64,000 bases of DNA, taken from a bacterium (GTDB lineage: Bacteria; Patescibacteriota; Patescibacteriia; JACQRZ01). Each line of letters starts with the position of its first letter. Position 1 is the stretch's first letter. This document shows, in pieces, positions 26,037 through 58,831 of this stretch. The stretch spans positions 5,931 through 69,930 of the forward strand of contig JAUYIE010000004.1 in the NCBI GenBank assembly GCA_030688365.1, in the 5' to 3' direction. The notes below the pieces were generated by a model that searched no databases, was not told the origin of the DNA, and saw only the letters and a list, made by a program, of their open reading frames with translations. Both the position numbers and the translations under genes were made by a program.

Positions 26037-27701
26037 CTAGCCAAACGTCCATGCAAATAATGATATATTGGGCTCTAAGAAAATAATTTCAACCTCGTGT
26101 TCGTCATACATATCGCCAAAGTCAGTGAGTTCATACAACCGTTCGCCATCAATAGTCAATATACCGTTTTTAACATCTTTTCCGCTGTACAAATCATCCT
26201 TCGCTTTTCCATCAATGAGTACCTGCGCTTCTCCTTTTCCTCCGATGACGAGATTTGCCCGCGACGCCTTGAAACGCATTTTTATTACAGCATTTGCTGA
26301 CTGACTGGTAATTTTTTCTGCCTCTTCAGACCAATCACCCCCCAGAGTCCATTGATTGAGCCCAAGAACGCTCGCGTTAGGAACAAAATTGTCCCTTCGC
26401 GCAGTACCAACATAGGTCTCTGGTGACCCAATCCCAGCAAAATCCACTGACTTTGCATTGATAATGCCATTTTTGACTGTTGTTGAGAGCAATGAAACAA
26501 TAGCATCTTCTGTTTCATCATACTTCCCCTCACCAAAATGTGTATAGCGTACAAAACCATCTTGATCTATCAGATACTTTGCAGGCCAATAGTGATTGTT
26601 ATACGCGCGCCAGAGTGAAAAATCATTATCTTGTACCACGGGGTACGTCAAACCAAAATCAAGTACGGCCCTTTGAACATTTTCAAATTTTTTCTCAAAT
26701 TGAAACTCTGGTGCATGTACGCCAATAATGACCAGTCCATCGTCGTGATACCGTTCGTGCCACGTCTGCATATACGGTAACGTGCGGATGCAATTAATGC
26801 ATGAGTATGTCCAAAAATCAATGAGTACGACTTTGCCTTTCAAGTCATTCATTGAGTTGATTGAGTCACTATTGATCCAGTGTGTCAGGCCGGCAAATTC
26901 CGGTGCATCAAAAAGATACGGCAGTTGGCTACCATCAGCACCTGGATTTCTAAATTTTTTTGCCTGCGGTTCACCCAATGTCTTATTTATCAAGCCCTCT
27001 TCAAAGCCAGAAACACCAAATCCTGCGTCCAAAATTGCAGTTTCAATTTTTTTCTCAAAACCAGTCATTACAGCCAGACCAACGAGAATCAAAAGTATTC
27101 CCATGGATCTTTTGAACCACCCTGTGGGATTTGTAGCCCATTCCAAGTGACTGATAAGTCTTTGACCAAAGTAACCGACGATACCCAGCGTAAGTATGAT
27201 TCCAAGTGCATACACGAGGAGATAGACGACACCCACGCCAAAATTTACCGGCAATACGGTAGCGAGGATAACAAAATAAGTCGGTGAACAGCTTGAAAAA
27301 ACAGGACCTAAAGCAGCACCGATTAAAATTGCACTTCCCACAGACTCGCCGATGCCAGCTTTTGCCAATCCACCTTGTGCACCTTGATTGAAACGTATCG
27401 CAAGAGCAATCCTTTCCCATAATTCGGGCCAGAGCAAAAAGATACCAAATATAAGAACTATTCCACCGGATATACTCGTCCAAAACATTTGAGGTATACC
27501 AATAAGCAATGAGGATGCTTTAAGTAGTAGCGTAAATACTACGATGCTCAAAGCAAGTGATGTTGTCACGATCAGCGGTTTCCACCAATTTTTTGAACCA
27601 GCGGTAGTCCCTATGATAACCGGAAGGAGTGGTAATACGCATGGCGCCAAAATCGTCAACATGCCGGCGATAAATGATGTACCTAATAAAAGACCATTCA
27701 T
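26037..27701 (-). CDS. Fusion protein: CcdA/DsbD-like transmembrane thiol-disulfide transporter plus TlpA/ResA-like thioredoxin domain
   Basis: N-terminal polytopic region with paired Cys (LAPCVLPLLP). C-terminal thioredoxin fold with WTYSCINC (CxxC). Confidence 0.8.
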   Translation of the reverse strand: MNGLLLGTSFIAGMLTILAPCVLPLLPVIIGTTAGSKNWWKPLIVTTSLALSIVVFTLLLKASSLLIGIPQMFWTSISGGIVLIFGIFLLWPELWERIALAIRFNQGAQGGLAKAGIGESVGSAILIGAALGPVFSSCSPTYFVILATVLPVNFGVGVVYLLVYALGIILTLGIVGYFGQRLISHLEWATNPTGWFKRSMGILLILVGLAVMTGFEKKIETAILDAGFGVSGFEEGLINKTLGEPQAKKFRNPGADGSQLPYLFDAPEFAGLTHWINSDSINSMNDLKGKVVLIDFWTYSCINCIRTLPYMQTWHERYHDDGLVIIGVHAPEFQFEKKFENVQRAVLDFGLTYPVVQDNDFSLWRAYNNHYWPAKYLIDQDGFVRYTHFGEGKYDETEDAIVSLLSTTVKNGIINAKSVDFAGIGSPETYVGTARRDNFVPNASVLGLNQWTLGGDWSEEAEKITSQSANAVIKMRFKASRANLVIGGKGEAQVLIDGKAKDDLYSGKDVKNGILTIDGERLYELTDFGDMYDEHEVEIIFLEPNISLFAWTFG

Positions 27702-47800: not shown

Positions 47801-49288
47801 TTATACCTCTCTTAGTTGTGCGCGTATATGGCTACGTGCACAGGTCGTTTTAACAAACGCCAACCAATCTACGTTTGGTTTTTTTCTATTTTTATCAGTA
47901 AGGATTTCCACCACATCACCACTTTGAAGCGTGCTATCTAATGATGCCATAGTGTCATTTATCTTTGCCCCGACACAATGCATACCAACATCCGTGTGAA
48001 TACGATATGCAAAATCAACTGGTGTAGATTGTTCAGGTAGATTGATAACGTCTCCTTGGGGAGTAAATACAAAAATACGATCTCCAAATGCATCAAGTTT
48101 TAATGAAGACAGATATTCACTATCATTATCTACATTTTGAGGTAAGGAAATAATCTCCTCAATCCATTCCGTATCCTTTGTTGGAGTAGTCGCTCGTTTG
48201 CCAGACTCGTCATAGTGCCAATGAGCGGCAATACCAAATTTTGCTTCCTGATCCATCTCTCTCGTCCGTATTTGGAATTCTACTATTTCTCCGCCTTCAC
48301 AAAAAATGGTCGTATGCAACCCACGATAGTTATTTGCCTTTGGCTGTGTTATGTAATCTTTGATGCGTCCCGGAAGTGGTTTCCAGTGTTGATGAATGAT
48401 ACCAAGCACCGCGTAGCAATCAGCAATAGTATCCACGATAATCCGCAATGCGACTAAATCATATAATCCAGAAACTTGCGTGCTATTTTTTGTCTGTAAC
48501 TTTTTGTAAATACTGAAAAGATTTTTGACCCGACTGACGATTTGAAAATTTTTAATTCCATTTACATCTAGATCTTCACTCGCTATTTCCTCTATATGGC
48601 GCAAGTATTCTTCCTTTTTATCAAGTATTGGCTCTACTTGTGCGCGCAATGTATCATAACCCTGCGGGTCAACGTATTTAAAAGCTAAGTCCTCTAATTG
48701 TGTTTTAATTCTTCCCATACCAAGCCGGTTTGCGATGGGAACATAGATTTCCAGTACCTCTTGGGCGATACGATCTCTCTTTTCTACCGGAAGTGCATCC
48801 AGTGTCTTGAGATTATCCAACCGATCAGCAAATTTAATCACAATAATACGAATATCTTTTGCCATCGCGATAAACATTTTGCGTAGATTTTCCGCATATT
48901 TTTCAACACCTCTATATTTCATGAGTCCCAATTTTGAGACACCTTCCACCAACACTGCGACATCCTTACCAAACTGCTTTGATAACTCATCAATCGTAAT
49001 GGATGTCTCATCAGTAATCTCATGCAAAAGACCCGCAATAATCGTCGGCGTATCCATTTGCATTGTCGCTAAAGTGTACGAGGTTGCCAAACAGTGTTGA
49101 ATAAAATCCTCTCCGTTTAAACGCTGGTGTCCTCTATGTGCATCATCGGCAAATTCGTAGGCAAGCATAAGTAAGTCTTCATCAACATGAGGATTATATT
49201 CTTTTATTTTTGCAATGAGATCTGAAAACTGCATAAGTATAGTATACCGTGTTTGGTGTATGATAGAGAAAAATTGAATGAAAGTCAA
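47801..49288 (-). CDS. rel: Bifunctional (p)ppGpp synthetase/hydrolase (RelA/SpoT family)
   Basis: HD hydrolase domain (HLLHEITDE). RelA/SpoT synthetase domain. TGS domain. Confidence 0.85.
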   Translation of the reverse strand: MTFIQFFSIIHQTRYTILMQFSDLIAKIKEYNPHVDEDLLMLAYEFADDAHRGHQRLNGEDFIQHCLATSYTLATMQMDTPTIIAGLLHEITDETSITIDELSKQFGKDVAVLVEGVSKLGLMKYRGVEKYAENLRKMFIAMAKDIRIIVIKFADRLDNLKTLDALPVEKRDRIAQEVLEIYVPIANRLGMGRIKTQLEDLAFKYVDPQGYDTLRAQVEPILDKKEEYLRHIEEIASEDLDVNGIKNFQIVSRVKNLFSIYKKLQTKNSTQVSGLYDLVALRIIVDTIADCYAVLGIIHQHWKPLPGRIKDYITQPKANNYRGLHTTIFCEGGEIVEFQIRTREMDQEAKFGIAAHWHYDESGKRATTPTKDTEWIEEIISLPQNVDNDSEYLSSLKLDAFGDRIFVFTPQGDVINLPEQSTPVDFAYRIHTDVGMHCVGAKINDTMASLDSTLQSGDVVEILTDKNRKKPNVDWLAFVKTTCARSHIRAQLREV

Positions 49289-49369
49289 TGATCTTCATGT
49301 TCATTGTCCTATTGACCATATACATGAAAACCAGTATTATACAACCACTATAACTCTTAAATTTTTTAT

Positions 49370-49966
49370 ATGGATGACGAAATGGAAATCTTTGATCCAT
49401 CAGGACCAATGATTGGCATGAATGTGCCTGATCTGACACTCAATGCCTACCAAGACGGCAAGTTTATGCCGATCAAATTGACAGATTATAAGGGAAAGTG
49501 GCTTGTATTGTTTTTTTACCCTGCCAACTTTACGTTTGTCTGTCCAACTGAACTGGAAGAAATGGCGGATCATTATGAAGAAATCAAAGCGCTGGGCGCA
49601 GAAGTCTTAAGCGTAAGCACTGACACCGAGTTTAGCCACATGGCGTGGCATGATTCTTCACCGGCGATTGGCAAAGTAAATTTTCCAATGGTAGCCGATC
49701 CCACCGGTATGTTGTGTCAAGAATTGGGCACCTATATCTATGACGAAGGACTTTCTTTACGTGGCACATTTATTTTTGATCCGGAAGGCACACTCAAATC
49801 ATTTGAAATGAATGACAACAGTATCGGGCGCAGTGCTACCGAACTCATCCGTAAACTCAAAGCGGCAATCTTTGTGAAAGAGCACCCCGGGCAAGTATGT
49901 CCTGCCAGTTGGACACCGGGCGCAAAAACATTGACCCCCGGACCTGATTTAGTGGGGAAGATTTAG
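49370..49966 (+). CDS. Peroxiredoxin (AhpC/Prx1, typical 2-Cys)
   Basis: FTFVCPTE peroxidatic Cys motif. C-terminal resolving Cys (VCP). Confidence 0.9.
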   Translation: MDDEMEIFDPSGPMIGMNVPDLTLNAYQDGKFMPIKLTDYKGKWLVLFFYPANFTFVCPTELEEMADHYEEIKALGAEVLSVSTDTEFSHMAWHDSSPAIGKVNFPMVADPTGMLCQELGTYIYDEGLSLRGTFIFDPEGTLKSFEMNDNSIGRSATELIRKLKAAIFVKEHPGQVCPASWTPGAKTLTPGPDLVGKI

Positions 49967-50680
49967 TTCCCTATGACGAGGAATGATCTTAAAGACAAGT
50001 ACCATCGCAAGGAGTATCGCAAACCCGCACATGATGGACGCGATCCCGATATGCGCTTGCGTGACTAACACGTATACCACTGCGGTCGGCACCAAAAATG
50101 ACGCATACCCCGCAATCATCCATTGCATCAAGATACTGTCCCCTGTTTTATGTTTTAAACCAATAAATAATTCAACGATCCCCCAGAACAAGATGCCGAG
50201 ATAATACAGACCATACGTCCGATTCACAATACCGTCAGAATGAAACGCGACAAACTTTCCCGCACAGGTGACCGCATTGAGCGCGTCAGGAAGAATAAAA
50301 AACGCAATGGAAAATGCGGTAGCGAGCGCATAGGCAATCCATACGCTCATACGACCGCGAGAGTTTGTCTCCATGCGCACCAGATGCAACCCCAACGGCG
50401 GTAACATCGTGATCGCCACATGCCCGACGCGAAGCCACCACCATATGTCACCCCCCGTGCACATCATGTATTCTGACAGCTGAAAGATGCCAAGACAGAG
50501 AAGCACTGCCCCGACTCCGTATACAAAACGATCCCGCCTGTATCGTGCGAGGATATATACCGCAAAAGCAGTCTCAATAACAAACGTCGCCAGACTGACT
50601 GGCGGCGTGAAGCAATTGAGCTTGATGGAATTATCGGATTTCATGTGTATATATGATACTCCACACCGATACTTTTGCAA
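49949..50680 (-). CDS. Polytopic membrane protein of unknown function
   Basis: 243 aa with about 7 hydrophobic helices. Confidence 0.5.
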   Translation of the reverse strand: MQKYRCGVSYIHMKSDNSIKLNCFTPPVSLATFVIETAFAVYILARYRRDRFVYGVGAVLLCLGIFQLSEYMMCTGGDIWWWLRVGHVAITMLPPLGLHLVRMETNSRGRMSVWIAYALATAFSIAFFILPDALNAVTCAGKFVAFHSDGIVNRTYGLYYLGILFWGIVELFIGLKHKTGDSILMQWMIAGYASFLVPTAVVYVLVTQAHIGIASIMCGFAILLAMVLVFKIIPRHRELNLPH

Positions 50681-50738
50681 CTCCGTCCAAGAAAGACTAT
50701 ACTATTCTCACACGAGCTAATTTTCTAAAGACTCATAT

Positions 50739-51317
50739 ATGTACGAACCGAAAAACTACGATCATCTGATCGGCACACAAGGGTTTAGCGATGTTATGCT
50801 CAAAAACCATTTTACGTTGTATCAAGGGTATGTGACCAACTTTAATAAATTGAATGACACGCTCGTCGCCATAGAAAAGGAAGGGCAATTTGGTACACCC
50901 ATATTCGCCGAGCTCAATCGACGATTCAGCTGGGAATTTAACGGTATGCGATTACATGAGCTCTATTTCGATAACATGAAAAAAGACGGAGAACCAATGA
51001 CCGATGGTGAACTGAAGAAAAACATCATTGCAGAGTGGGAGAGTATGGAAGCCTGGGAAAAAGATTTCAAAGCCATGGGCGCGATGCGTGGTATCGGCTG
51101 GGTGATTCTGTATCATGACAAGGAAGCAAAACGGCTGTTTAATGTCTGGGTAAACGAACACGATGTCGGCCACTTCGCTGGCTGTACTCCCCTTTTGATC
51201 ATGGACGTCTTTGAACACGCGTTTATGATTGATTACGGCCTTAAACGCGCGGATTATATTGCAAGCTTTTGGAACGCGATTGATTGGAGTATCGTGGAAA
51301 AGAGGTTTGAGGAGTAA
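50739..51317 (+). CDS. Fe/Mn superoxide dismutase-like protein
   Basis: C-terminal DVFEHAFMIDY resembles the DVWEHAYY motif. The N-terminal domain is divergent. Confidence 0.75.
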   Translation: MYEPKNYDHLIGTQGFSDVMLKNHFTLYQGYVTNFNKLNDTLVAIEKEGQFGTPIFAELNRRFSWEFNGMRLHELYFDNMKKDGEPMTDGELKKNIIAEWESMEAWEKDFKAMGAMRGIGWVILYHDKEAKRLFNVWVNEHDVGHFAGCTPLLIMDVFEHAFMIDYGLKRADYIASFWNAIDWSIVEKRFEE

Positions 51318-51378
51318 AGATATCTGGAATAGAAAAAAGAGACTCTAATTTTACGAGTCTCTTTTTTTATATAACTTT

Positions 51379-51618
51379 TTACTCAATATAAAAATGACTT
51401 TTTAGCTGTTCTTCTCTGATCCATTTCACGCCTGTTTTATATATCGCGAGTTGTGTACCCCTATCAAGAGAGCTGTGATTGGGAACAACAAGTGTTTCGG
51501 TGTGCCCACGTGTTCTACGCAGTTTGATATGACTTCCTTTTTAAGAAATGACGACAAAACCAAAAGAAACAAAAATAGCAACAAGCTCTTTTCCTGACAT
51601 GACCCTCATTTTAGGCAT
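51379..51618 (-). pseudogene. hicA: hicA toxin gene disrupted by an in-frame TAA (minus strand, codon at + 51541-51543)
   Basis: Minus-strand translation gives MPKMRVMSGKELVAIFVSFGFVVIS-stop-KGSHIKLRRTRGHTETLVVPNHSSLDRGTQLAIYKTGV. This is a HicA fold with the GSH..LRR..G...VVP.H motif. The TAA sits exactly where HicA proteins have Q/K before KGSH. Confidence 0.65.
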
Positions 51619-51892
51619 ATTGAGGCTGGATCTCAAAATTAACCAACACTCCAGGGCGCTGGTCAATGCCATATGCCTCCCTGTCTACTACATCTTCAAA
51701 GAAGAGCTCAATTGCCTCTTCAAGATTGTGAATCACCTCATCAACAGTTTTTCCTTGTGTAAAAACAGGTATATCAATGCACTCGCCCACATAGGCATCT
51801 TCGCCTTTATATATTTTCGCTTGGATGATTTTTTTCATAAAGACTCTGTATTTATCCATGAATACCATAGCAGATGTCTGGTTAATTTGCAA
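51611..51892 (-). CDS. hicB: HicB-family antitoxin (UPF0150)
   Basis: KIYKGEDAYVGECIDIPVFTQGKTVDEVIHNLEEAIELFFE matches the HicB N-terminal fold. Immediately upstream of the hicA remnant. Confidence 0.7.
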   Translation of the reverse strand: MQINQTSAMVFMDKYRVFMKKIIQAKIYKGEDAYVGECIDIPVFTQGKTVDEVIHNLEEAIELFFEDVVDREAYGIDQRPGVLVNFEIQPQYA

Positions 51893-51903
51893 CTTCCTCT
51901 TTC

Positions 51904-52080
51904 TTAAGACTTGTCTGCTAGCCTATCTTTAATGAAACCATTTTTCTTCATAAAATTGACGACCGGTTTTGCACATATTTCACACAATTCCTTTCCATTA
52001 CTAAACCATCCTATGCGGACATATATCACGGCACCGTCGGAAATCTCTTTATGACAAATATCACACTGATGTGTCGTCAT
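51904..52080 (-). CDS. Small zinc-ribbon protein (CxxC...CxxC)
   Basis: MTTHQCDICHKE...CEICAKP, 58 aa from the ATG at 52080. Lies between the hicB and vapC modules. Confidence 0.45.
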   Translation of the reverse strand: MTTHQCDICHKEISDGAVIYVRIGWFSNGKELCEICAKPVVNFMKKNGFIKDRLADKS

Positions 52081-52087
52081 AGACAAG

Positions 52088-52140
52088 CATGTTAATGTTT
52101 AGAATCCAAACGTAGCACACGAAAAAATTGAAGGCAAATG
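52088..52140. repeat. Copy 1 of an approximately 53-bp direct repeat (catgttaatgtttagaa...acgtagcacacgaaaaaa.tga.ggcaaatg), about 85 percent identical to the copy at 52925-52978
   Basis: Direct comparison of the two segments. Together they bracket vapBC. Confidence 0.7.
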
Positions 52141-52197
52141 GAGTTCCGCTGTAGGGAAAAAGGTATGAAAAAAGAGGCTTTTTTATGAGCCTCTTTT

Positions 52198-52617
52198 TTA
52201 TACATCCTTTGGTTCGACACGTCTTACCTTTAACTTTTCAAACTCCTTGTCGTAAGATACCACCACGCCATTCTTGATTTCAAGTACCTGCGCGGCTATC
52301 AAAGTGTCAATGAATTTAACTGAATTCCCTTGATACAATTCGAGAGCTTGGAAAAAATCTCCCCCGTCTTTTATGCTCAAATACGACATTGCCACGATAC
52401 CTCCCAATAATTCAACAACATCTTCTTTTTTGAGTTTGTAGAAACTCAAACATGTCCACACAAACTCTGCCAATACGAGTTTGGAGGTGGTTGCTCGAAG
52501 TGTCCCTTCCTGTATGCGCTCGAATAGTCTTTCACAGTCTTTCGCCATCGCTACGTCATCTTTGACGACAAACCGAAGAAAGATATTGGTGTCAAGGAAG
52601 TATCTATTTCCTTGCAT
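52198..52617 (-). CDS. vapC: PIN-domain toxin VapC
   Basis: FLDTNIF N-terminus and conserved acidic residues of the PIN fold. Overlaps the vapB stop. Confidence 0.85.
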   Translation of the reverse strand: MQGNRYFLDTNIFLRFVVKDDVAMAKDCERLFERIQEGTLRATTSKLVLAEFVWTCLSFYKLKKEDVVELLGGIVAMSYLSIKDGGDFFQALELYQGNSVKFIDTLIAAQVLEIKNGVVVSYDKEFEKLKVRRVEPKDV

Positions 52618-52843
52618 ATTTTTTCTCCATACTTGCCCGTGCTTTGAGCGGATTGGTGCGTTTTTTAGGAGTAATGCGACGACCGGACGAAACGAAGTTA
52701 TTCAAGGGAATGAGACGCGCTGCCTTGTTCCCTTTTTCAATCTGCACAGCTACGCGACTATTTTTTCCTAAACGAAGCATATCCCTGATTTCTTTAGGGA
52801 TCGTAATCTGCCCTTTTTGTGTAACGGTGGTATGGTAAGGCAT
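52604..52843 (-). CDS. vapB: AbrB/SpoVT-type antitoxin VapB
   Basis: QKGQITIPKEIRDMLRL swapped-hairpin motif. 14-nt overlap with vapC. Confidence 0.8.
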   Translation of the reverse strand: MPYHTTVTQKGQITIPKEIRDMLRLGKNSRVAVQIEKGNKAARLIPLNNFVSSGRRITPKKRTNPLKARASMEKKYARK

Positions 52844-52879
52844 ATGGGTAAAGTAATACTTACTGTGTATTCCTTACTT

Positions 52880-52908
52880 ATTATGAAACATCCACTTTTG
52901 CATGTCAA
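52880..52908 (-). promoter_or_regulatory. Near-consensus sigma70-like promoter for vapBC (TTGACA-17-CATAAT on the minus strand)
   Basis: Minus strand reads ttgacatgcaaaagtggatgtttcataat, about 40 nt upstream of the vapB start. Confidence 0.4.
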
Positions 52909-52924
52909 GCGGATCAATGAGAAA

Positions 52925-52978
52925 CATGTTAATGTTTAGAACATTAACGTAGCACACGAAAAAAACTGAGGCAAATGT
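52925..52978. repeat. Copy 2 of the approximately 53-bp direct repeat; contains a perfect palindrome GTTAATGTT-TAG-AACATTAAC
   Basis: 9-bp inverted arms with a 3-nt spacer, located just upstream of the vapBC promoter and just downstream of the RT1 stop. The palindrome is degenerate in copy 1. Confidence 0.7.
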
Positions 52979-52979
52979 G

Positions 52980-53984
52980 TTACCCTGTCTCATCCAGTAG
53001 CCAATGATCGTTGAGTATACTTGTCCTTATTTTGTGGGTATTCCCATGTGATAACAGTCCGAGATATGACTGAAGCGTCGCTTCGTTAGAATCATGAGAC
53101 AACTTTTTGAACATTCGCCGTCTTGTTGTCGCCCGCAGTACATGATGATCGGCAAAGTGCACCCAGCCCAAATAATCTACCCCTGACGCAATGGTACGAA
53201 TGCTGACTTTATTGGGATGCAATGAAAGCTTGAGCTTGTCTGATAAAAAATCCTGTATCGGATCAATAGTGCGCTCGAGTATACTTCTATCCTGTGACAA
53301 CAGAACAAAATCATCGGCATATCGGATATAATGTGGCACTCGCATATCGTGCTTGATGTATTGGTCAAATAAATTCATGTATATATTGGCAAACAGTTGC
53401 GATGTAAGATTCCCCAATGGAAGTCCTTTATCACTAGACGATTTAAAACTCCCGATTATTCTTGAAAGCAACCACAATATCTTTCTGTCAGGGATATAAT
53501 CCTCCAATATACAATATAAAACGGCATGATCTATGCTCGCAAAGAATTTTCGTATATCACATTTGAGAACGTAACATGTACGAGTATTGTTCCTGCTTAC
53601 CTTGCACGAGTAAGATGTAAATCGATCCATTGCGCTGTGAGTACCTTTGCCCACACGAGCTGAAAATGAATCAGCGATAAACTTTGTTTCAAAAAAAGGA
53701 TATAATATACGGTGAAGAGCGTGATGTACCACCCGATCGCGCACCTGCGCCTTGTGGATTTCCCGTGATTTTGGATCATTGATATAAAAACGTGTATACG
53801 CGCCATGCATGTACTCACCTGACAATAGCTCCTCATGCAACGCATTGATGTTTTCAAACAGATGATCTCGAAACGCGCGGACATCCCACTTGTTCCGTTT
53901 CCCACATTCAAACTCGAGCCACGCTTCAATCAAATTGTCGTGCGAAATAATATCTTCAAATGTATGTCCCAACAATATTTTCAT
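52980..53984 (-). CDS. Diversity-generating retroelement reverse transcriptase (DGR RT1)
   Basis: RT domains 1-7, with the DGR-specific LPLGNLTSQ (GxxxSQ) replacing the group II intron QGxxxSP, plus YIRYADDFV. 334 aa. A cognate TR/VR pair lies nearby. Confidence 0.9.
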   Translation of the reverse strand: MKILLGHTFEDIISHDNLIEAWLEFECGKRNKWDVRAFRDHLFENINALHEELLSGEYMHGAYTRFYINDPKSREIHKAQVRDRVVHHALHRILYPFFETKFIADSFSARVGKGTHSAMDRFTSYSCKVSRNNTRTCYVLKCDIRKFFASIDHAVLYCILEDYIPDRKILWLLSRIIGSFKSSSDKGLPLGNLTSQLFANIYMNLFDQYIKHDMRVPHYIRYADDFVLLSQDRSILERTIDPIQDFLSDKLKLSLHPNKVSIRTIASGVDYLGWVHFADHHVLRATTRRRMFKKLSHDSNEATLQSYLGLLSHGNTHKIRTSILNDHWLLDETG

Positions 53985-54002
53985 AAAAATCCATTAAGGA
54001 AT

Positions 54003-54010
54003 CCCCCCCC
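54003..54010. repeat. Poly-C homopolymer (8 nt) in the divergent RT1-avd1 intergenic region
   Basis: cccccccc read directly. The equivalent tract in DGR2 is 10 nt. Confidence 0.9.
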
Positions 54011-54031
54011 AAGGCGTCACAAATTCCTATT

Positions 54032-54388
54032 TTGCAAAAAGCCGTAGAAACATACAAACTATGGCATTTGTTCTTACAGCAGATGCCTCGTCTTACTCGA
54101 TTTAGTCTTGGTACAAAAATCGACATATTGTTTACCGACACGTTACAGCTCATGCTCTCTGCGAAATACGCACCACGAGAACAAAAGCTGGAATACATAC
54201 GAACATTGTGCACCAACATAGATGCCATCAAATTCTTTTTGCAAATCGCGTTTGAGCTCAAGGCATTAAGCGCTAAAAAATATTCCAGTGTGTCCATACC
54301 TCTGGAAGAGATCGGAAAAATGGTCGGCGGGTGGAAAAAACAGCTGGAAAAAGAAAATCCTGCCACAAAAACTTCATGGCAGGAATGA
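54032..54388 (+). CDS. avd: Avd-like accessory variability determinant (four-helix-bundle protein, TIGR02436-like), predicted TTG start
   Basis: About 118 aa helical protein with C-terminal IPLEEIGKMVGGWKKQL, matching the Avd/23S-IVS four-helix-bundle family. Paralog at 62879-63295. Adjacent to RT and TR. Confidence 0.8.
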   Translation: MQKAVETYKLWHLFLQQMPRLTRFSLGTKIDILFTDTLQLMLSAKYAPREQKLEYIRTLCTNIDAIKFFLQIAFELKALSAKKYSSVSIPLEEIGKMVGGWKKQLEKENPATKTSWQE

Positions 54389-54399
54389 TACGAGAGAGT

Positions 54400-54523
54400 T
54401 GCTCGAACGCAAGGAAACGATAGTTGTCATTCCAATCACCAGCCAGCTTGTTGAGGTTGAGCTTACGCTTGTCGTTGTTCCTGTTCAACACAGGAGCACA
54501 CAGATCACCGTTCTCATTGCGAA
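54400..54523 (-). repeat. DGR1 template repeat (TR1), 124 bp
   Basis: Aligns base-for-base (offset +499) with 54899-55022. All 20 mismatches are T in TR on the plus strand (A on the minus strand) versus C/G/A in VR. Confidence 0.85.
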
Positions 54524-54785
54524 AATGCACGGAATATCATCTTTGACACCACCCTTTGACTCGCCATCTGGCACATTCTCGGGGTTGAATCGTATTCGGG
54601 GCATTTCAGCCCGCCAATATTCCGCACCAAGTCTCTTCGTAATCGCGAAGCAATCGGGCACACGCTGTATGGTAACAAAAAACGCCATACATTCCGGCTT
54701 CCCAAAAAGCTCCAGAGTTCGACCGCCATGAAGTCGTAACGACATGGATACTTCTCTACTTTCCAAAACTCAGTATATCACGCTG

Positions 54786-54821
54786 AATAAAAAATCCCTT
54801 AATAGTTTGTTCTATCAAGGG
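54786..54821 (-). terminator. Rho-independent terminator downstream of the DGR1 target gene
   Basis: Minus strand: CCCUUGAUAG-aacaaa-CUAUUAAGGG stem (one G-U pair) followed by AUUUUUUAUU. Confidence 0.5.
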
Positions 54822-54876
54822 AAGATAAGGGTCTAAAAATTCAAATTCTATTTCTAAACACTGAGGGACCCAGAGT

Positions 54877-55518
54877 CTAAGTGCCTTCCGAAGAAACCTG
54901 CTCGAACGCAAGGAAACGATAGTTGCCACTCCAATCACCAGCCAGCCCGTGGAGGCCGAGCAACCGCCAGTCGTTGAGCCCGTCCAACACAGGAGCACAC
55001 AGAACACCGCGCCCATCGCGAATTTCAATACCCATCAAACAAACGATTGGATATTTTAATTGTTCATCGGGGTTGTTTATGGCGTACTGTAATATTCTGG
55101 CAGGAGTAGCCTTGATCAAACCTTTTTCTTCGATCTTTTTTTCTGCATCTTCAGTCGAAATTTTTCCCAGATCAAGGATACGGACTTTTAACATTTCTAC
55201 ACCGACAGCTGGATCTATCGGAAACGTTTTTTCATTGATGTGACTGTTTACATAATAAAAATTTACGATTTTGATTTGATCGGAAAAACTCTTGTTGTTA
55301 TCAACTATTATGAGTCCAGAATTATCAACTTTCTTCGAAATTTCATTCAATGAACCGACAATAATTTGAGCAACCTTTTTCCTGCGGTCTGTGTCTTTCA
55401 AATACGCGTCTATGTGGTCATCTGTACCACCTTCATCCAGAATATCATTAAAGATAATTTTCACTACCTCAAAGATCTTTCCGAACAGTTTCAGATAACC
55501 ACTTGTTTTTTTAGCCAT
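54877..55518 (-). CDS. DGR1 variable (target) protein, 213 aa, no signal peptide; VR encodes the C-terminal roughly 41 aa
   Basis: Full ORF. The C-terminus IRDGRGVLCAPVLDGLNDWRLLGLHGLAGDWSGNYRFLAFEQ corresponds to the TR-encoded NENGDLCAPVLNRNNDKRKLNLNKLAGDWNDNYRFLAFEQ. Confidence 0.85.
   Translation of the reverse strand: MAKKTSGYLKLFGKIFEVVKIIFNDILDEGGTDDHIDAYLKDTDRRKKVAQIIVGSLNEISKKVDNSGLIIVDNNKSFSDQIKIVNFYYVNSHINEKTFPIDPAVGVEMLKVRILDLGKISTEDAEKKIEEKGLIKATPARILQYAINNPDEQLKYPIVCLMGIEIRDGRGVLCAPVLDGLNDWRLLGLHGLAGDWSGNYRFLAFEQVSSEGT
54899..55022 (-). repeat. DGR1 variable repeat (VR1)
   Basis: See TR1. The 3' end (low coordinate) has a 26-nt invariant block (putative IMH) ending 22 nt before the stop codon. 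Confidence 0.85.
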
Positions 55519-56656: not shown

Positions 56657-58831
56657 TTATTCTTCCTGTTTCTCGGGAGTGGGTTCGCCATCAGCACCTG
56701 TAGGTTTTTCCCATGACGCGTAGGTGCACTCCGGATATTTATCGCATCCATAAAACATCTTACCGCGTTTTGTTTTCTTTTCTACAACCTGACCTTTACC
56801 ACAATCGGGACATACGATACCCAGTTTTTTCAAACTCAATGAGCGGATGCTTTTGCATTCAGGATATTTACTGCATCCCAAAAACTTCCCAAACCGTCCT
56901 GTCTTGATGACCATCGGCGCTCCGCACTTATCACACGGTTCCGCTTCTTCAATCGCTTTCTTATCTTCCTCTTGTTCTTCTTTGGATTCAATCGGCTTGG
57001 TATTTTTACATTCCGGATAGCCGGTGCAAGCAAAAAATCTTCCAAAGCGACCAATCTTACTCACCATCGGCTTACCGCATTTATCACATACTTCATCGCT
57101 CACCTCTTCCGTGAGTTCCTTTTTTGAGAGCTCTTTATCTTTTTCTCCGAGTAATTTTTTGAACGGGGTATAAAACTCGCGAATGACCGGTACCCAATCC
57201 TTTTTACCATTTGCGACTTCATCGAGATCATCTTCCATGCGAGCGGTAAACTCGTAATCCACGATCTGTGGAAAATGCTCCATCAAAATATCATTCACCA
57301 GCGTTGCCATTTCTGTCGGCTTAAGGCGTCCTTCTTCTTTGATGACATATTTGCGCTCCACGATCGTGCTGATCGTCGGTGCATAGGTGGATGGACGACC
57401 AACACCATGTTCTTCAAGTACTTTGACCAGCCCTGCTTCACTGTATCGTGCAGGTGGTTTGGTAAAATGCTGCTCTGGATCAAATTTTAAAAGATCAAGG
57501 GCGTCATCTTTCTTCACAGCTGGAAGCAGTACTTCTTCTCTATCGGTCTGATACACGCGGGTAAATCCATCAAATTTTTCAATCTGACCGGTAGCACGAA
57601 AAACATACCCGGTAGACTTCTTACTTTTGAGAGTATCAATATCAATCGTCGTCGCTTCATATAGCGCATCCGGCATCTGACTCGCCACACTGCGTCGCCA
57701 TATCAGGTCATAAAGCTTGAATTGAGCGTCAGTGAGGTGTGCTTTCACTGATTCAGGTGTTCGCGACACGAGAGTCGGTCTTATGGCCTCATGTGCCTCT
57801 TGAGCGAGCTTGGATTTTGTCGCATATTTCTTTTCTCCTTTAGCATACTGTGTACCGTATTCAGATTTGATCACTTCTTGTGCTTCAGACAAAAACTTCT
57901 CGGAAAGGTTTACCGAGTCAGTACGCATATAGGTGATATATCCACCATCTTCTTCCGAACCTGCTTCAATACCTTCATAGAGTTGTTGAGCAAACATCAT
58001 GGTCTGCTTTGGTGAAAATCGTAAGCGACGGTTTGCGTCTTGTTGCAACGTAGAGGTAGTAAACGGCGTTGGCGGTTTGCGTGACGTATCTTTCATCGTG
58101 ACTTCTTTGACTGTGTAGTCCGCGCTTTCCAATTTTTTTAAAATATCTTGTGCATCTTTTTCATTTGAAATCTCAAACTTATCAAGCGTCTTTCCATCAT
58201 AGGCGTGCAAACTCGCATGAAATGAAACCGTGGTCTTGTCAGCAACATCAATCTCAATAGTCCAATATTCTTGCGGTACAAACGCTTCTATTTCCTTTTC
58301 ACGTTCCACAACCAACCGCACGGCGACGGATTGCACGCGTCCGGCGGATAGACCTTTGGCTACCTTCCTCCACAAAAATGGCGAGAGTTCATATCCCACC
58401 AGACGATCAAGCACACGACGCGCTTGTTGCGCATCTACCAAATCAAGATTTATCTGGCCTGCGTGTTCCAAGGCATCCATGACTGCCGTCTTTGTAATTT
58501 CATGAAATGCAATACGCTTGATCTTATCTTTTGGTACTTTCAAAATCTCTTGCAAATGCCATGAAATAGCTTCCCCTTCACGGTCTTGATCAGTTGCGAA
58601 ATAGACATCATCAGACGCTTTGGCAAGTTTCTTCAACTCGGTCGCGCGTTTTTGATTTGCTTTGGGGATAACATAATGCGGGGCGAAATCATGTTCAATA
58701 TCTACCCCCATCTCGCTTTTTGGAAGATCGCGAATATGACCAAAAGAAGACTCCACGCGGTAGTCTTTGCCTAAAAATTTGCTGATTGTTTTTGCTTTCG
58801 TTGGAGACTCAACGATGACCAAATGTTTCAT
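56657..58831 (-). CDS. topA: DNA topoisomerase I
   Basis: Toprim N-terminus (LVIVESPTKAK). Catalytic Tyr region. Three C-terminal C4 zinc ribbons. Confidence 0.95.
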   Translation of the reverse strand: MKHLVIVESPTKAKTISKFLGKDYRVESSFGHIRDLPKSEMGVDIEHDFAPHYVIPKANQKRATELKKLAKASDDVYFATDQDREGEAISWHLQEILKVPKDKIKRIAFHEITKTAVMDALEHAGQINLDLVDAQQARRVLDRLVGYELSPFLWRKVAKGLSAGRVQSVAVRLVVEREKEIEAFVPQEYWTIEIDVADKTTVSFHASLHAYDGKTLDKFEISNEKDAQDILKKLESADYTVKEVTMKDTSRKPPTPFTTSTLQQDANRRLRFSPKQTMMFAQQLYEGIEAGSEEDGGYITYMRTDSVNLSEKFLSEAQEVIKSEYGTQYAKGEKKYATKSKLAQEAHEAIRPTLVSRTPESVKAHLTDAQFKLYDLIWRRSVASQMPDALYEATTIDIDTLKSKKSTGYVFRATGQIEKFDGFTRVYQTDREEVLLPAVKKDDALDLLKFDPEQHFTKPPARYSEAGLVKVLEEHGVGRPSTYAPTISTIVERKYVIKEEGRLKPTEMATLVNDILMEHFPQIVDYEFTARMEDDLDEVANGKKDWVPVIREFYTPFKKLLGEKDKELSKKELTEEVSDEVCDKCGKPMVSKIGRFGRFFACTGYPECKNTKPIESKEEQEEDKKAIEEAEPCDKCGAPMVIKTGRFGKFLGCSKYPECKSIRSLSLKKLGIVCPDCGKGQVVEKKTKRGKMFYGCDKYPECTYASWEKPTGADGEPTPEKQEE

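What the first reader, a model, noticed from the sequence alone, without database searches (positions are those of the whole stretch)
51379..51892. HicAB module with intact hicB antitoxin but hicA toxin interrupted by an in-frame TAA
The minus-strand reading frame downstream of hicB encodes a clear HicA fold (MSGKELVAIFVSFGFVVIS * KGSHIKLRRTRGHTETLVVPNHSSLDRGTQL...). A TAA sits exactly where HicA has a Q/K residue before the KGSH motif. The frame is otherwise intact on both sides, so this is a single nonsense event (CAA or AAA to TAA) that disarms the toxin while keeping the antitoxin. This is either recent decay of an addiction module, or deliberate neutralisation where hicB is retained as an anti-addiction or regulatory factor. 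The stop is TAA, so UGA recoding cannot rescue it.
Basis: partly seen in the sequence, partly recalled or inferred. Interest (0 to 1): 0.5.

Follow-up and report, generated by a model that had tools for sequence, protein, structure and literature searches.

The report
Recently broken HicA toxin gene
A small two-gene toxin-antitoxin module (hicB-hicA) in an uncultured bacterium has lost its toxin through one C-to-T change that turns a conserved glutamine codon into a stop, which is an ordinary and common way for such modules to decay.

Summary
On the minus strand, hicB (51838..51611, 75 aa) overlaps by 8 nt a 79-codon hicA frame (51618..51379). That frame carries one in-frame TAA at codon 26 (51543..51541). 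With the stop masked, the frame matches Pfam HicA_toxin collinearly across the stop (44.8 bits against a cut-off of 27).

Codon 26 is Gln in at least 90% of 23 homologues. The closest relative, a syntenic locus with 83% nucleotide identity, has CAA there. The event is therefore a single CAA-to-TAA transition, 5' of the GSH motif whose histidine is essential for HicA RNase activity.

There is no other lesion. dN/dS against the relative is 0.13 for hicA and 0.05 for hicB, so the mutation is recent. An independent Logan assembly is 100% identical over 4 kb, TAA included. TAA is the commonest true stop in the window. I found no suppressor tRNA and no recoding structure.

The module belongs to the described Class 2 hicBA type, with a small HicB that lacks a DNA-binding domain. 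Among 69 related loci, 11 hicA genes are visibly broken, and 9 of those keep an intact hicB. Toxin-first decay is therefore routine in this family.

This is an ordinary pseudogene of low interest. A canonical diversity-generating retroelement lies next door.

The parts
51611..51838 (-). hicB antitoxin gene, intact, 75 aa (Class 2 small HicB without a DNA-binding domain)
   Evidence: The ORF is. NCBI names it a HicB family antitoxin, MDP2656108.1, 75 aa. Homologues lie immediately upstream of hicA in 63 of 69 related loci. The AlphaFold model has pLDDT 87 and a strand-strand-strand-helix-strand fold. The top Foldseek matches are the 3K6Q antitoxin, 1WV8 and 2YZT. A family profile hits 2YZT at 2.4e-9 and solved HicB chains only marginally. 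The Pfam HicB_lk_antitox hit is below threshold, 22.7 against 27 bits.
51379..51618 (-). hicA toxin pseudogene: 79 codons plus the terminal TAA, interrupted at codon 26
   Evidence: Translation is. Pfam HicA_toxin scores 44.8 bits, collinear across the stop. The frame is 89% identical to the intact 73-aa HicA P0001. No protein accession lies between SOD (MDP2656107) and HicB (MDP2656108) in the NCBI record.
51541..51543 (-). premature TAA stop replacing the conserved Gln26 codon (CAA in the nearest relative)
   Evidence: 63 of 69 related loci have CAA or CAG at this codon.
51526..51537 (-). G28-S29-H30-I31 codons (GGAAGTCATATC) holding the conserved catalytic His; they lie 3' of the stop and so are not translated
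   Evidence: G28, S29 and H30 are invariant in alignment A1. The family profile aligns this motif to KGSHIK of S. pneumoniae HicA 5YRZ_B. His36 of that protein is essential for RNase activity and toxicity (PMC6159526).
51333..51361 (-). terminator-like hairpin GAGACTC-(9 nt)-GAGTCTC followed by TTTTTT, after hicA
   Evidence: Read directly. It is missed by the scan, probably because that scan allows loops of 3-8 nt and this loop is 9 nt. A similar hairpin lies in front of SOD in L001.
51904..52080 (-). 58-aa CxxC...CxxC (zinc-ribbon-like) gene 65 nt upstream of hicB, probably co-transcribed; a lineage-specific neighbour and not a proven part of the module
   Evidence: The ORF is. NCBI calls it hypothetical protein Q8P11_00925. 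There is a homologue in the same position in L015, and a truncated one in L001. It is absent from the other hicBA loci.

Best explanation
This is a Class 2 hicBA type II toxin-antitoxin module whose toxin gene has recently become a pseudogene. A small HicB without a DNA-binding domain is encoded first, and hicA overlaps its end.

Shown: one C-to-T transition on the coding strand changed the conserved Gln26 codon CAA to TAA.

Inferred from the sequence: translation, probably coupled to hicB through the ATGCCTAA overlap, now ends after 25 residues. That is upstream of the Gly-Ser-His motif whose histidine is the catalytic residue of HicA RNases. The product would be an inert 25-aa peptide, and the module can no longer poison the cell.

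Inferred from how TA modules work: hicB is still intact because the mutation is young, and because toxin-first loss is the only viable order of decay. Losing the antitoxin first would free an active toxin. Nothing indicates that the stop is bypassed, or that hicB has acquired a new role.
For: - The frame has a single stop, and the HicA HMM match is collinear across it.
- Gln26 is at least 90% conserved. G28, S29 and H30 are invariant.
- The syntenic relative L001 has CAA and an intact hicA.
- dN/dS against L001 is 0.126 for hicA, 0.086 for the part 3' of the stop, and 0.046 for hicB. There is no frameshift or second stop, so the lesion is recent relative to dS of about 0.5.
- The Logan contig L002 (SRR13727534) is 100% identical to window 49730..53772, TAA included.
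- TAA ends 32 of the 61 stop-to-stop frames of at least 150 codons. The in-frame neighbours checked (five pairs, four of them separated by TAA) are complete, separate genes such as DnaB/RecR and ScpB/TIM. TAA is therefore a genuine stop here, and no other gene is split.
- None of the 5 tRNAs in the window is a suppressor. There is no unusual RNA fold 3' of the stop, z = -0.35.
- No in-frame ATG, GTG or TTG follows the stop until the GTG of Val65, so the catalytic part cannot be restarted.
- 11 of 69 related hicA genes are visibly disrupted, and 9 of these keep an uninterrupted hicB.
- Codon 26 is the only nonsense site reachable by a transition that lies 5' of the GSH motif.
- The His of the GSH motif is essential in S. 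pneumoniae HicA (PMC6159526; aligned).
Against: - Raw reads were not available. A minority intact allele in the population cannot be excluded. The Logan contig may also derive from the same reads as the MAG.
- No expression or toxicity data exist for any Class 2 hicBA module (PMC10865869).
- Low-level UAA read-through cannot be ruled out by sequence analysis alone.
- Only 64 kb of the genome was visible, so I cannot say whether HicB has another HicA partner elsewhere.
Confidence: 0.85

Rival explanations
1. Adaptive retention. The toxin was inactivated and hicB is now kept by selection as a stand-alone factor. It might act as an anti-addiction or immunity protein that neutralises HicA toxins arriving on plasmids or phages, or toxins from a paralogous hicA elsewhere in the genome.
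For: hicB is intact and highly constrained against L001 (dN/dS 0.046). 9 of 11 decayed family members keep an uninterrupted hicB. Orphan antitoxins are abundant, and an anti-addiction role has been proposed for them (PMC7192599).
Against: The dN/dS value integrates the whole divergence from L001. It says nothing about the short time since the nonsense event. Toxin-first decay produces the same pattern without any selection on hicB. No second HicA or HicB homologue lies in the 64-kb window. HicB has no DNA-binding domain, so a regulatory role is unlikely (PMC10865869). Two older decayed loci, L056 and L059, give no HicB match at E <= 1e-3, so hicB also seems to be lost with time.
Confidence: 0.08
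2. Artefact or polymorphism. The TAA is a sequencing or consensus error, or a minority allele, and the organism actually carries an intact CAA hicA.
For: The window comes from a metagenome-assembled genome. A single-base difference is the kind of change that consensus errors or strain mixtures can produce.
Against: An independently built Logan contig from SRR13727534 is identical over 4043 nt, including the TAA. The site is not in a homopolymer or repeat that is prone to substitution error. None of the neighbouring in-frame gene pairs checked is a split gene. NCBI's record apparently lists no HicA protein between SOD and HicB.
Confidence: 0.05
3. Programmed attenuation. The UAA is read through, or suppressed, at low frequency. 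This would yield trace amounts of full-length HicA, and the stop would act as a dosage throttle on the toxin.
For: The 3' part of hicA is still perfectly in frame and conserved. Stops at the very same codon occur in two other loci, L056 (TAG) and L059 (TAA).
Against: - TAA is the main genuine stop in this window.
- There is no suppressor tRNA and no stimulatory structure.
- L056 and L059 carry additional lesions (lost start, frameshifts), so they are plain wrecks.
- The recurrence is explained by mutational opportunity. 63 of 69 loci have CAA or CAG at this position, and it is the only transition-accessible nonsense site before the active site.
- The closest relative has a sense codon.
- From general knowledge, UAA is the least leaky bacterial stop.
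Confidence: 0.02

Closest known systems
Class 2 hicBA modules (Gerdes 2024, mBio, PMC10865869)
   Same: Gene order is hicB then hicA. HicB is 60-90 aa with the partial RNase H fold and no DNA-binding domain, and HicA is 60-85 aa. The genes overlap, which suggests translational coupling. The window has a 75-aa HicB, a 79-codon hicA and an 8-nt overlap.
   Different: The toxin gene here carries a nonsense mutation at codon 26, so the module is no longer a working pair. A small zinc-ribbon-like gene lies just upstream in this lineage.
Streptococcus pneumoniae HicBA (PDB 5YRZ; PMC6159526)
   Same: The order is hicB-hicA. HicA has the KGSHIK motif whose His36 is essential for RNase activity and toxicity. 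The family profile aligns to 5YRZ_B over this motif.
   Different: S. pneumoniae HicB is 150 aa with a C-terminal ribbon-helix-helix DNA-binding domain. The window's HicB lacks one. Sequence similarity is only detectable with a profile (E 4e-4).
Orphan antitoxins and degraded TA loci in bacterial populations (e.g. Klebsiella pneumoniae, PMC7192599)
   Same: An antitoxin ORF is retained next to a missing or disrupted toxin. The paper lists degrading TA pairs among possible sources and anti-addiction among possible roles.
   Different: Here the toxin remnant is still full-length and differs from a working gene by one base. This is the earliest recognisable stage of that decay.
Thermus thermophilus stand-alone HicA-like TTHA1913 (1WHZ) and HicB-like TTHA1756 / TTHA1013 (2YZT, 1WV8)
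   Same: These are the best solved-structure relatives. 1WHZ matches the HicA profile at E 5.6e-5. 2YZT matches the HicB profile at E 2.4e-9. 1WV8 and 2YZT are among the top fold matches to the HicB model.
   Different: They are structural-genomics proteins. The PDB entries call them hypothetical or uncharacterized proteins and name no function.

Membership tests
HicA toxin (Pfam PF07927) | Sequence matches the HicA_toxin HMM above the gathering score, in one collinear stretch | tested here: met
   44.8 bits against 27. Residues 9-61 align to profile positions 1-54 of 58, with the stop masked.
HicA toxin (Pfam PF07927) | Conserved Gly-Ser-His motif with the catalytic histidine | tested here: met
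   The G28-S29-H30 codons are present and invariant in the family. They align to KGSHIK of 5YRZ_B. His36 is essential there. The motif lies 3' of the stop.
HicA toxin (Pfam PF07927) | Uninterrupted reading frame able to produce the whole domain | tested here: not met
   There is a TAA at codon 26 and no in-frame restart codon before Val65. It is therefore a HicA pseudogene, not a HicA toxin.
HicA toxin (Pfam PF07927) | mRNA-cleaving activity and growth inhibition | not testable with these tools
   This needs expression of the native and the repaired allele.
HicB antitoxin, Class 2 (small, no DNA-binding domain) | Partial RNase H fold (strand-strand-strand-helix-strand) | tested here: met
   The AlphaFold model has pLDDT 87.3, with elements E2-11, E16-20, E26-29, H32-49, H53-56 and E58-69. 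Foldseek top hits are the 3K6Q antitoxin, 1WV8 and 2YZT, probabilities 0.98-1.0 but E of only 0.03-0.08.
HicB antitoxin, Class 2 (small, no DNA-binding domain) | Match to the curated HicB profile above threshold | tested here: inconclusive
   PF15919 scores 22.7 bits against a cut-off of 27, and PF21748 scores 17.8 against 27.3. There is no NCBIfam hit. Only 4 of 44 family members hit PF15919, so the curated models cover this subfamily poorly. The profile against PDB hits solved HicB chains at E 0.007-0.06.
HicB antitoxin, Class 2 (small, no DNA-binding domain) | Encoded immediately upstream of, and overlapping, a hicA gene | tested here: met
   The overlap in the window is 8 nt. A homologue lies directly upstream of hicA in 63 of 69 related loci.
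HicB antitoxin, Class 2 (small, no DNA-binding domain) | No HTH or RHH DNA-binding domain | tested here: met
   It is 75 aa with a single domain in the model. No DNA-binding Pfam family is hit.
Functional type II toxin-antitoxin module | Both a translatable toxin and a cognate neutralising antitoxin | tested here: not met
   The toxin frame is broken. Neutralisation by HicB is not testable here.

The most novel reading that the evidence does not exclude
HicB is kept by selection as a stand-alone anti-HicA immunity factor, against HicA toxins carried by phages, plasmids or a paralogue. In addition, the CAA/TAA change at codon 26 acts as a recurrent, potentially reversible one-base off-switch for Class 2 hicBA modules. 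This would fit the same-codon stops seen in two unrelated genomes.
Probability: 0.05. Interest if true: 0.45.

Novelty: new member of a known kind. Interest (0 to 1): 0.12.

Why it matters
It matters little beyond annotation. The locus should be labelled as a hicA pseudogene with an intact hicB, not as a working TA system.

It does give a clean snapshot of the first step of TA decay, a toxin one base away from function. The family survey adds a small quantitative point: 11 of 69 hicA genes are broken, and 9 of those keep an intact hicB. That fits toxin-first erosion in the still uncharacterised Class 2 hicBA group.

A repaired allele (TAA to CAA) would be a convenient matched control for the first experimental test of a Class 2 module.

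Tried and rejected
- **Alternative genetic code or TAA recoding: rejected.** TAA terminates 32 of the 61 stop-to-stop frames of at least 150 codons. The in-frame neighbour pairs checked are separate, complete genes.
- **Suppressor tRNA or stimulatory RNA structure: none found**. Rfam finds only five tRNAs in the window.
- **Internal restart giving an active C-terminal fragment: rejected.** There is no in-frame start codon before Val65.
- **Mutagenesis of hicA by the adjacent retroelement: rejected.** hicA has no template-repeat homologue, and the change is C-to-T rather than at an adenine.
- **A second HicA or HicB in the window that HicB might serve: none**.
- **Population check through public assemblies:** only three related records exist. 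These are the NCBI MAG, an identical Logan contig, and one relative with 83% nucleotide identity across hicBA. The metagenome DNA-pattern scan returned only an unrelated HicA. The genome collection does not hold this organism; the best match there is 54% identical.
- **Single-sequence searches against solved structures gave nothing meaningful.** HicA hit only a designed 'Pizza' protein, and HicB gave E of about 0.7. Profiles were needed.
- **A word-indexed protein search with the zinc-ribbon protein found only the query itself**.
- **The promoter scan gave no more matches than shuffled sequence**, 7 against 5.2 expected. I make no promoter claim.

Full report
**1. What is in the sequence**

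On the minus strand, an uninterrupted 75-codon ORF runs 51838..51611. It is followed by a 79-codon frame, 51618..51379, that overlaps it by 8 nt (ATGCCTAA). The second frame translates as MPKMRVMSGKELVAIFVSFGFVVIS*KGSHIKLRR...HFYIE*. It has one internal TAA at codon 26, at positions 51543..51541 read on the minus strand. The T of the stop is on the coding strand, so the plus-strand base at 51543 is A. This is a small correction to the finding.

A hairpin, GAGACTC-N9-GAGTCTC followed by a T-run, lies after hicA at 51361..51333.

**2. Is it HicA, and are the halves collinear?**

Yes. With the stop masked, the frame matches Pfam PF07927 at 44.8 bits (cut-off 27, E 1.4e-11). The match is one stretch spanning the stop, residues 9-61 against profile positions 1-54.

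A database search found 43 homologues. I aligned 23 of them:
- G28, S29 and H30 are invariant.
- Q26 is at least 90% conserved.

A profile of this alignment hits two solved HicA-type structures, 1WHZ and S. pneumoniae HicA 5YRZ_B. It aligns the window's KGSHIK to the motif that holds His36. Kim et al. showed that this residue is essential for RNase activity and toxicity (PMC6159526). The stop therefore lies 5' of the catalytic residue. After the stop there is no in-frame ATG, GTG or TTG until the GTG of Val65, so no active fragment can be made.

**3. What the mutation was, and when**

The best homologue, P0001, is 89% identical and 73 aa long. It comes from a 2186-nt Logan contig, L001, that is syntenic with the window: a zinc-ribbon gene remnant, hicB, hicA, vapBC and SOD. 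There the codon is CAA. The event is a single C-to-T transition.

Nei-Gojobori estimates between the two loci:

| Gene or segment | dN/dS |
|---|---|
| hicA, whole | 0.126 |
| hicA, 3' of the stop | 0.086 |
| hicB | 0.046 |
| vapB | 0.017 |

hicA has no frameshift and no second stop. It was therefore under purifying selection for nearly all of the divergence (dS about 0.5), and the stop is young.

**4. Is it real?**

The window is part of a 70.6-kb contig of an NCBI MAG labelled only 'bacterium'. SOD is MDP2656107 and HicB is MDP2656108. With no accession number between them, no HicA protein appears to have been called.

An independent Logan assembly of run SRR13727534 gave a 4043-nt contig that is 100% identical to window 49730..53772, TAA included. 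That rules out an assembler-specific error. It does not rule out a minority intact allele, because both assemblies may draw on the same reads. Read pile-ups were not available.

**5. Recoding and read-through**

- TAA ends 32 of the 61 stop-to-stop frames of at least 150 codons in the window.
- The adjacent same-frame ORF pairs I checked by Pfam (five pairs, four separated by TAA) are complete, distinct genes: DnaB/RecR, ScpB/TIM, pilin/histidine kinase and others. hicA is the only nonsense-split gene seen.
- The five tRNAs are Lys, Thr, Tyr, Thr and Val. None is a suppressor.
- The RNA 3' of the stop folds no better than shuffled sequence, z = -0.35.

**6. The partner gene**

The 75-aa protein gives only sub-threshold Pfam hits: HicB_lk_antitox at 22.7 against 27 bits, and UPF0150. 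Other evidence identifies it as HicB:
- NCBI names it a HicB family antitoxin.
- A homologue lies immediately upstream of hicA in 63 of 69 related genome loci.
- An exhaustive HMMER search finds 809 relatives, mostly about 75 aa.
- A profile of 44 of them hits 2YZT at 2.4e-9 and several solved HicB chains marginally.
- An AlphaFold model (pLDDT 87) has the strand-strand-strand-helix-strand partial RNase H fold. Its best fold matches are the 3K6Q antitoxin, 1WV8 and 2YZT.

The protein has no DNA-binding domain. This architecture is the 'Class 2 hicBA' of Gerdes (2024). That paper describes it as very common but experimentally untested (PMC10865869).

**7. How unusual is a dead hicA with a live hicB?**

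It is not unusual. I inspected the 69 loci that share the KGSHIKLRR motif. Eleven have visibly disrupted hicA genes, through premature stops, frameshifts or lost starts: L013, L022, L045, L052, L056, L059, L060, L065, L067, L069 and L070. Nine of these keep an uninterrupted hicB alignment.

Two have a stop at the very same Gln codon: L056 (TAG) and L059 from Trichormus azollae (TAA). Both also carry other lesions.

Mutational opportunity explains the recurrence. 63 of 69 loci have CAA or CAG at this codon. In the intact L001 gene, codon 26 is the only nonsense site reachable by a transition that lies before the active site.

The literature reports abundant orphan antitoxins. It suggests degrading TA pairs as one source and anti-addiction as one possible role (PMC7192599).

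**8. Mechanism**

Shown: there is a single nonsense codon before the catalytic motif, the rest of the frame is intact, hicB is intact, and the locus is syntenic with a working relative.

Inferred:
- Ribosomes coupled from hicB terminate after 25 residues of hicA, which yields an inert peptide.
- The module has lost its toxic arm.
- hicB survives because the event is recent, and because antitoxin-first loss would be lethal.

Not supported: a regulatory role for HicB, since it has no DNA-binding domain.

Untestable here: an anti-addiction role. No other HicA or HicB is present in the 64 kb available.

**9. Verdict**

The feature is an ordinary, recently formed toxin pseudogene in a known class of TA module. 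Interest is low.

**10. Context noticed on the way**

- A canonical diversity-generating retroelement lies 1.1 kb away.
- A vapBC pair sits on opposite sides of hicBA in the window and in L001. A duplicated 64-nt upstream element is associated with it.
- A small CxxC...CxxC gene precedes hicB in this lineage and in a Candidatus Taylorbacteria genome.

Noticed in passing
window 52980..55518 (minus strand): This is a canonical diversity-generating retroelement. The reverse transcriptase is at 52980..53984 (RVT_1, 84 bits) and contains LPLGNLTSQ. An unannotated 136-aa ORF lies at 53956..54366. The template repeat is at 54393..54523. The variable repeat, 54892..55022, covers codons 166-209 of a 213-aa target protein (54877..55518) that has no Pfam hit. 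21 of the 24 mismatches between the two 131-nt repeats fall on template adenines.
   Followed up: partly
window 52198..52843 (minus) versus L001 965..1613: A vapB (MazE/AbrB-type, 79 aa) and vapC (PIN, 139 aa) pair lies upstream of the zinc-ribbon-hicBA unit in the window. In the relative L001, the orthologous pair (90% nucleotide identity) lies downstream of hicA, while the flanking terminators stay in place. TA cassettes have therefore been shuffled between close relatives.
   Followed up: partly
window 52077..52140 and 52914..52977: A 64-nt element occurs twice at 81% identity. One copy overlaps the start of the zinc-ribbon gene. The other lies between the end of the reverse transcriptase gene and the vapB promoter-like site. 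It may be a footprint of the cassette rearrangement or a shared 5' regulatory region.
   Followed up: no
window 51904..52080 (minus); L015 3541..3723; L001 241..339: A 58-aa protein with two CxxC pairs (NCBI Q8P11_00925, hypothetical) lies 65 nt upstream of hicB. A 41%-identical homologue occupies the same position in a Candidatus Taylorbacteria genome. In L001 the gene is truncated after the first CxxC. It is absent from about 60 other hicBA loci. Because Class 2 HicB lacks a DNA-binding domain, it could be a lineage-specific third partner, but nothing tests that.
   Followed up: partly
loci L056 (4073..4075) and L059 (4025..4027): Two unrelated genomes, an uncultured bacterium and Trichormus azollae, have a stop (TAG and TAA) at exactly the same Gln codon of hicA. 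Both also carry further lesions. Overall, 11 of 69 related hicA genes are disrupted, and 9 of those keep an intact hicB.
   Followed up: yes
window 47801..51317 and 26037..27701: Stress genes flank the TA and retroelement island. They are RelA/SpoT (47801..49288), a peroxiredoxin (49370..49966), Fe/Mn superoxide dismutase (50739..51317), and a thioredoxin-like/AhpC fusion (26037..27701). Topoisomerase I (56657..58831) has three C4 zinc ribbons, which appear as internal direct repeats at 56725..57088.
   Followed up: no
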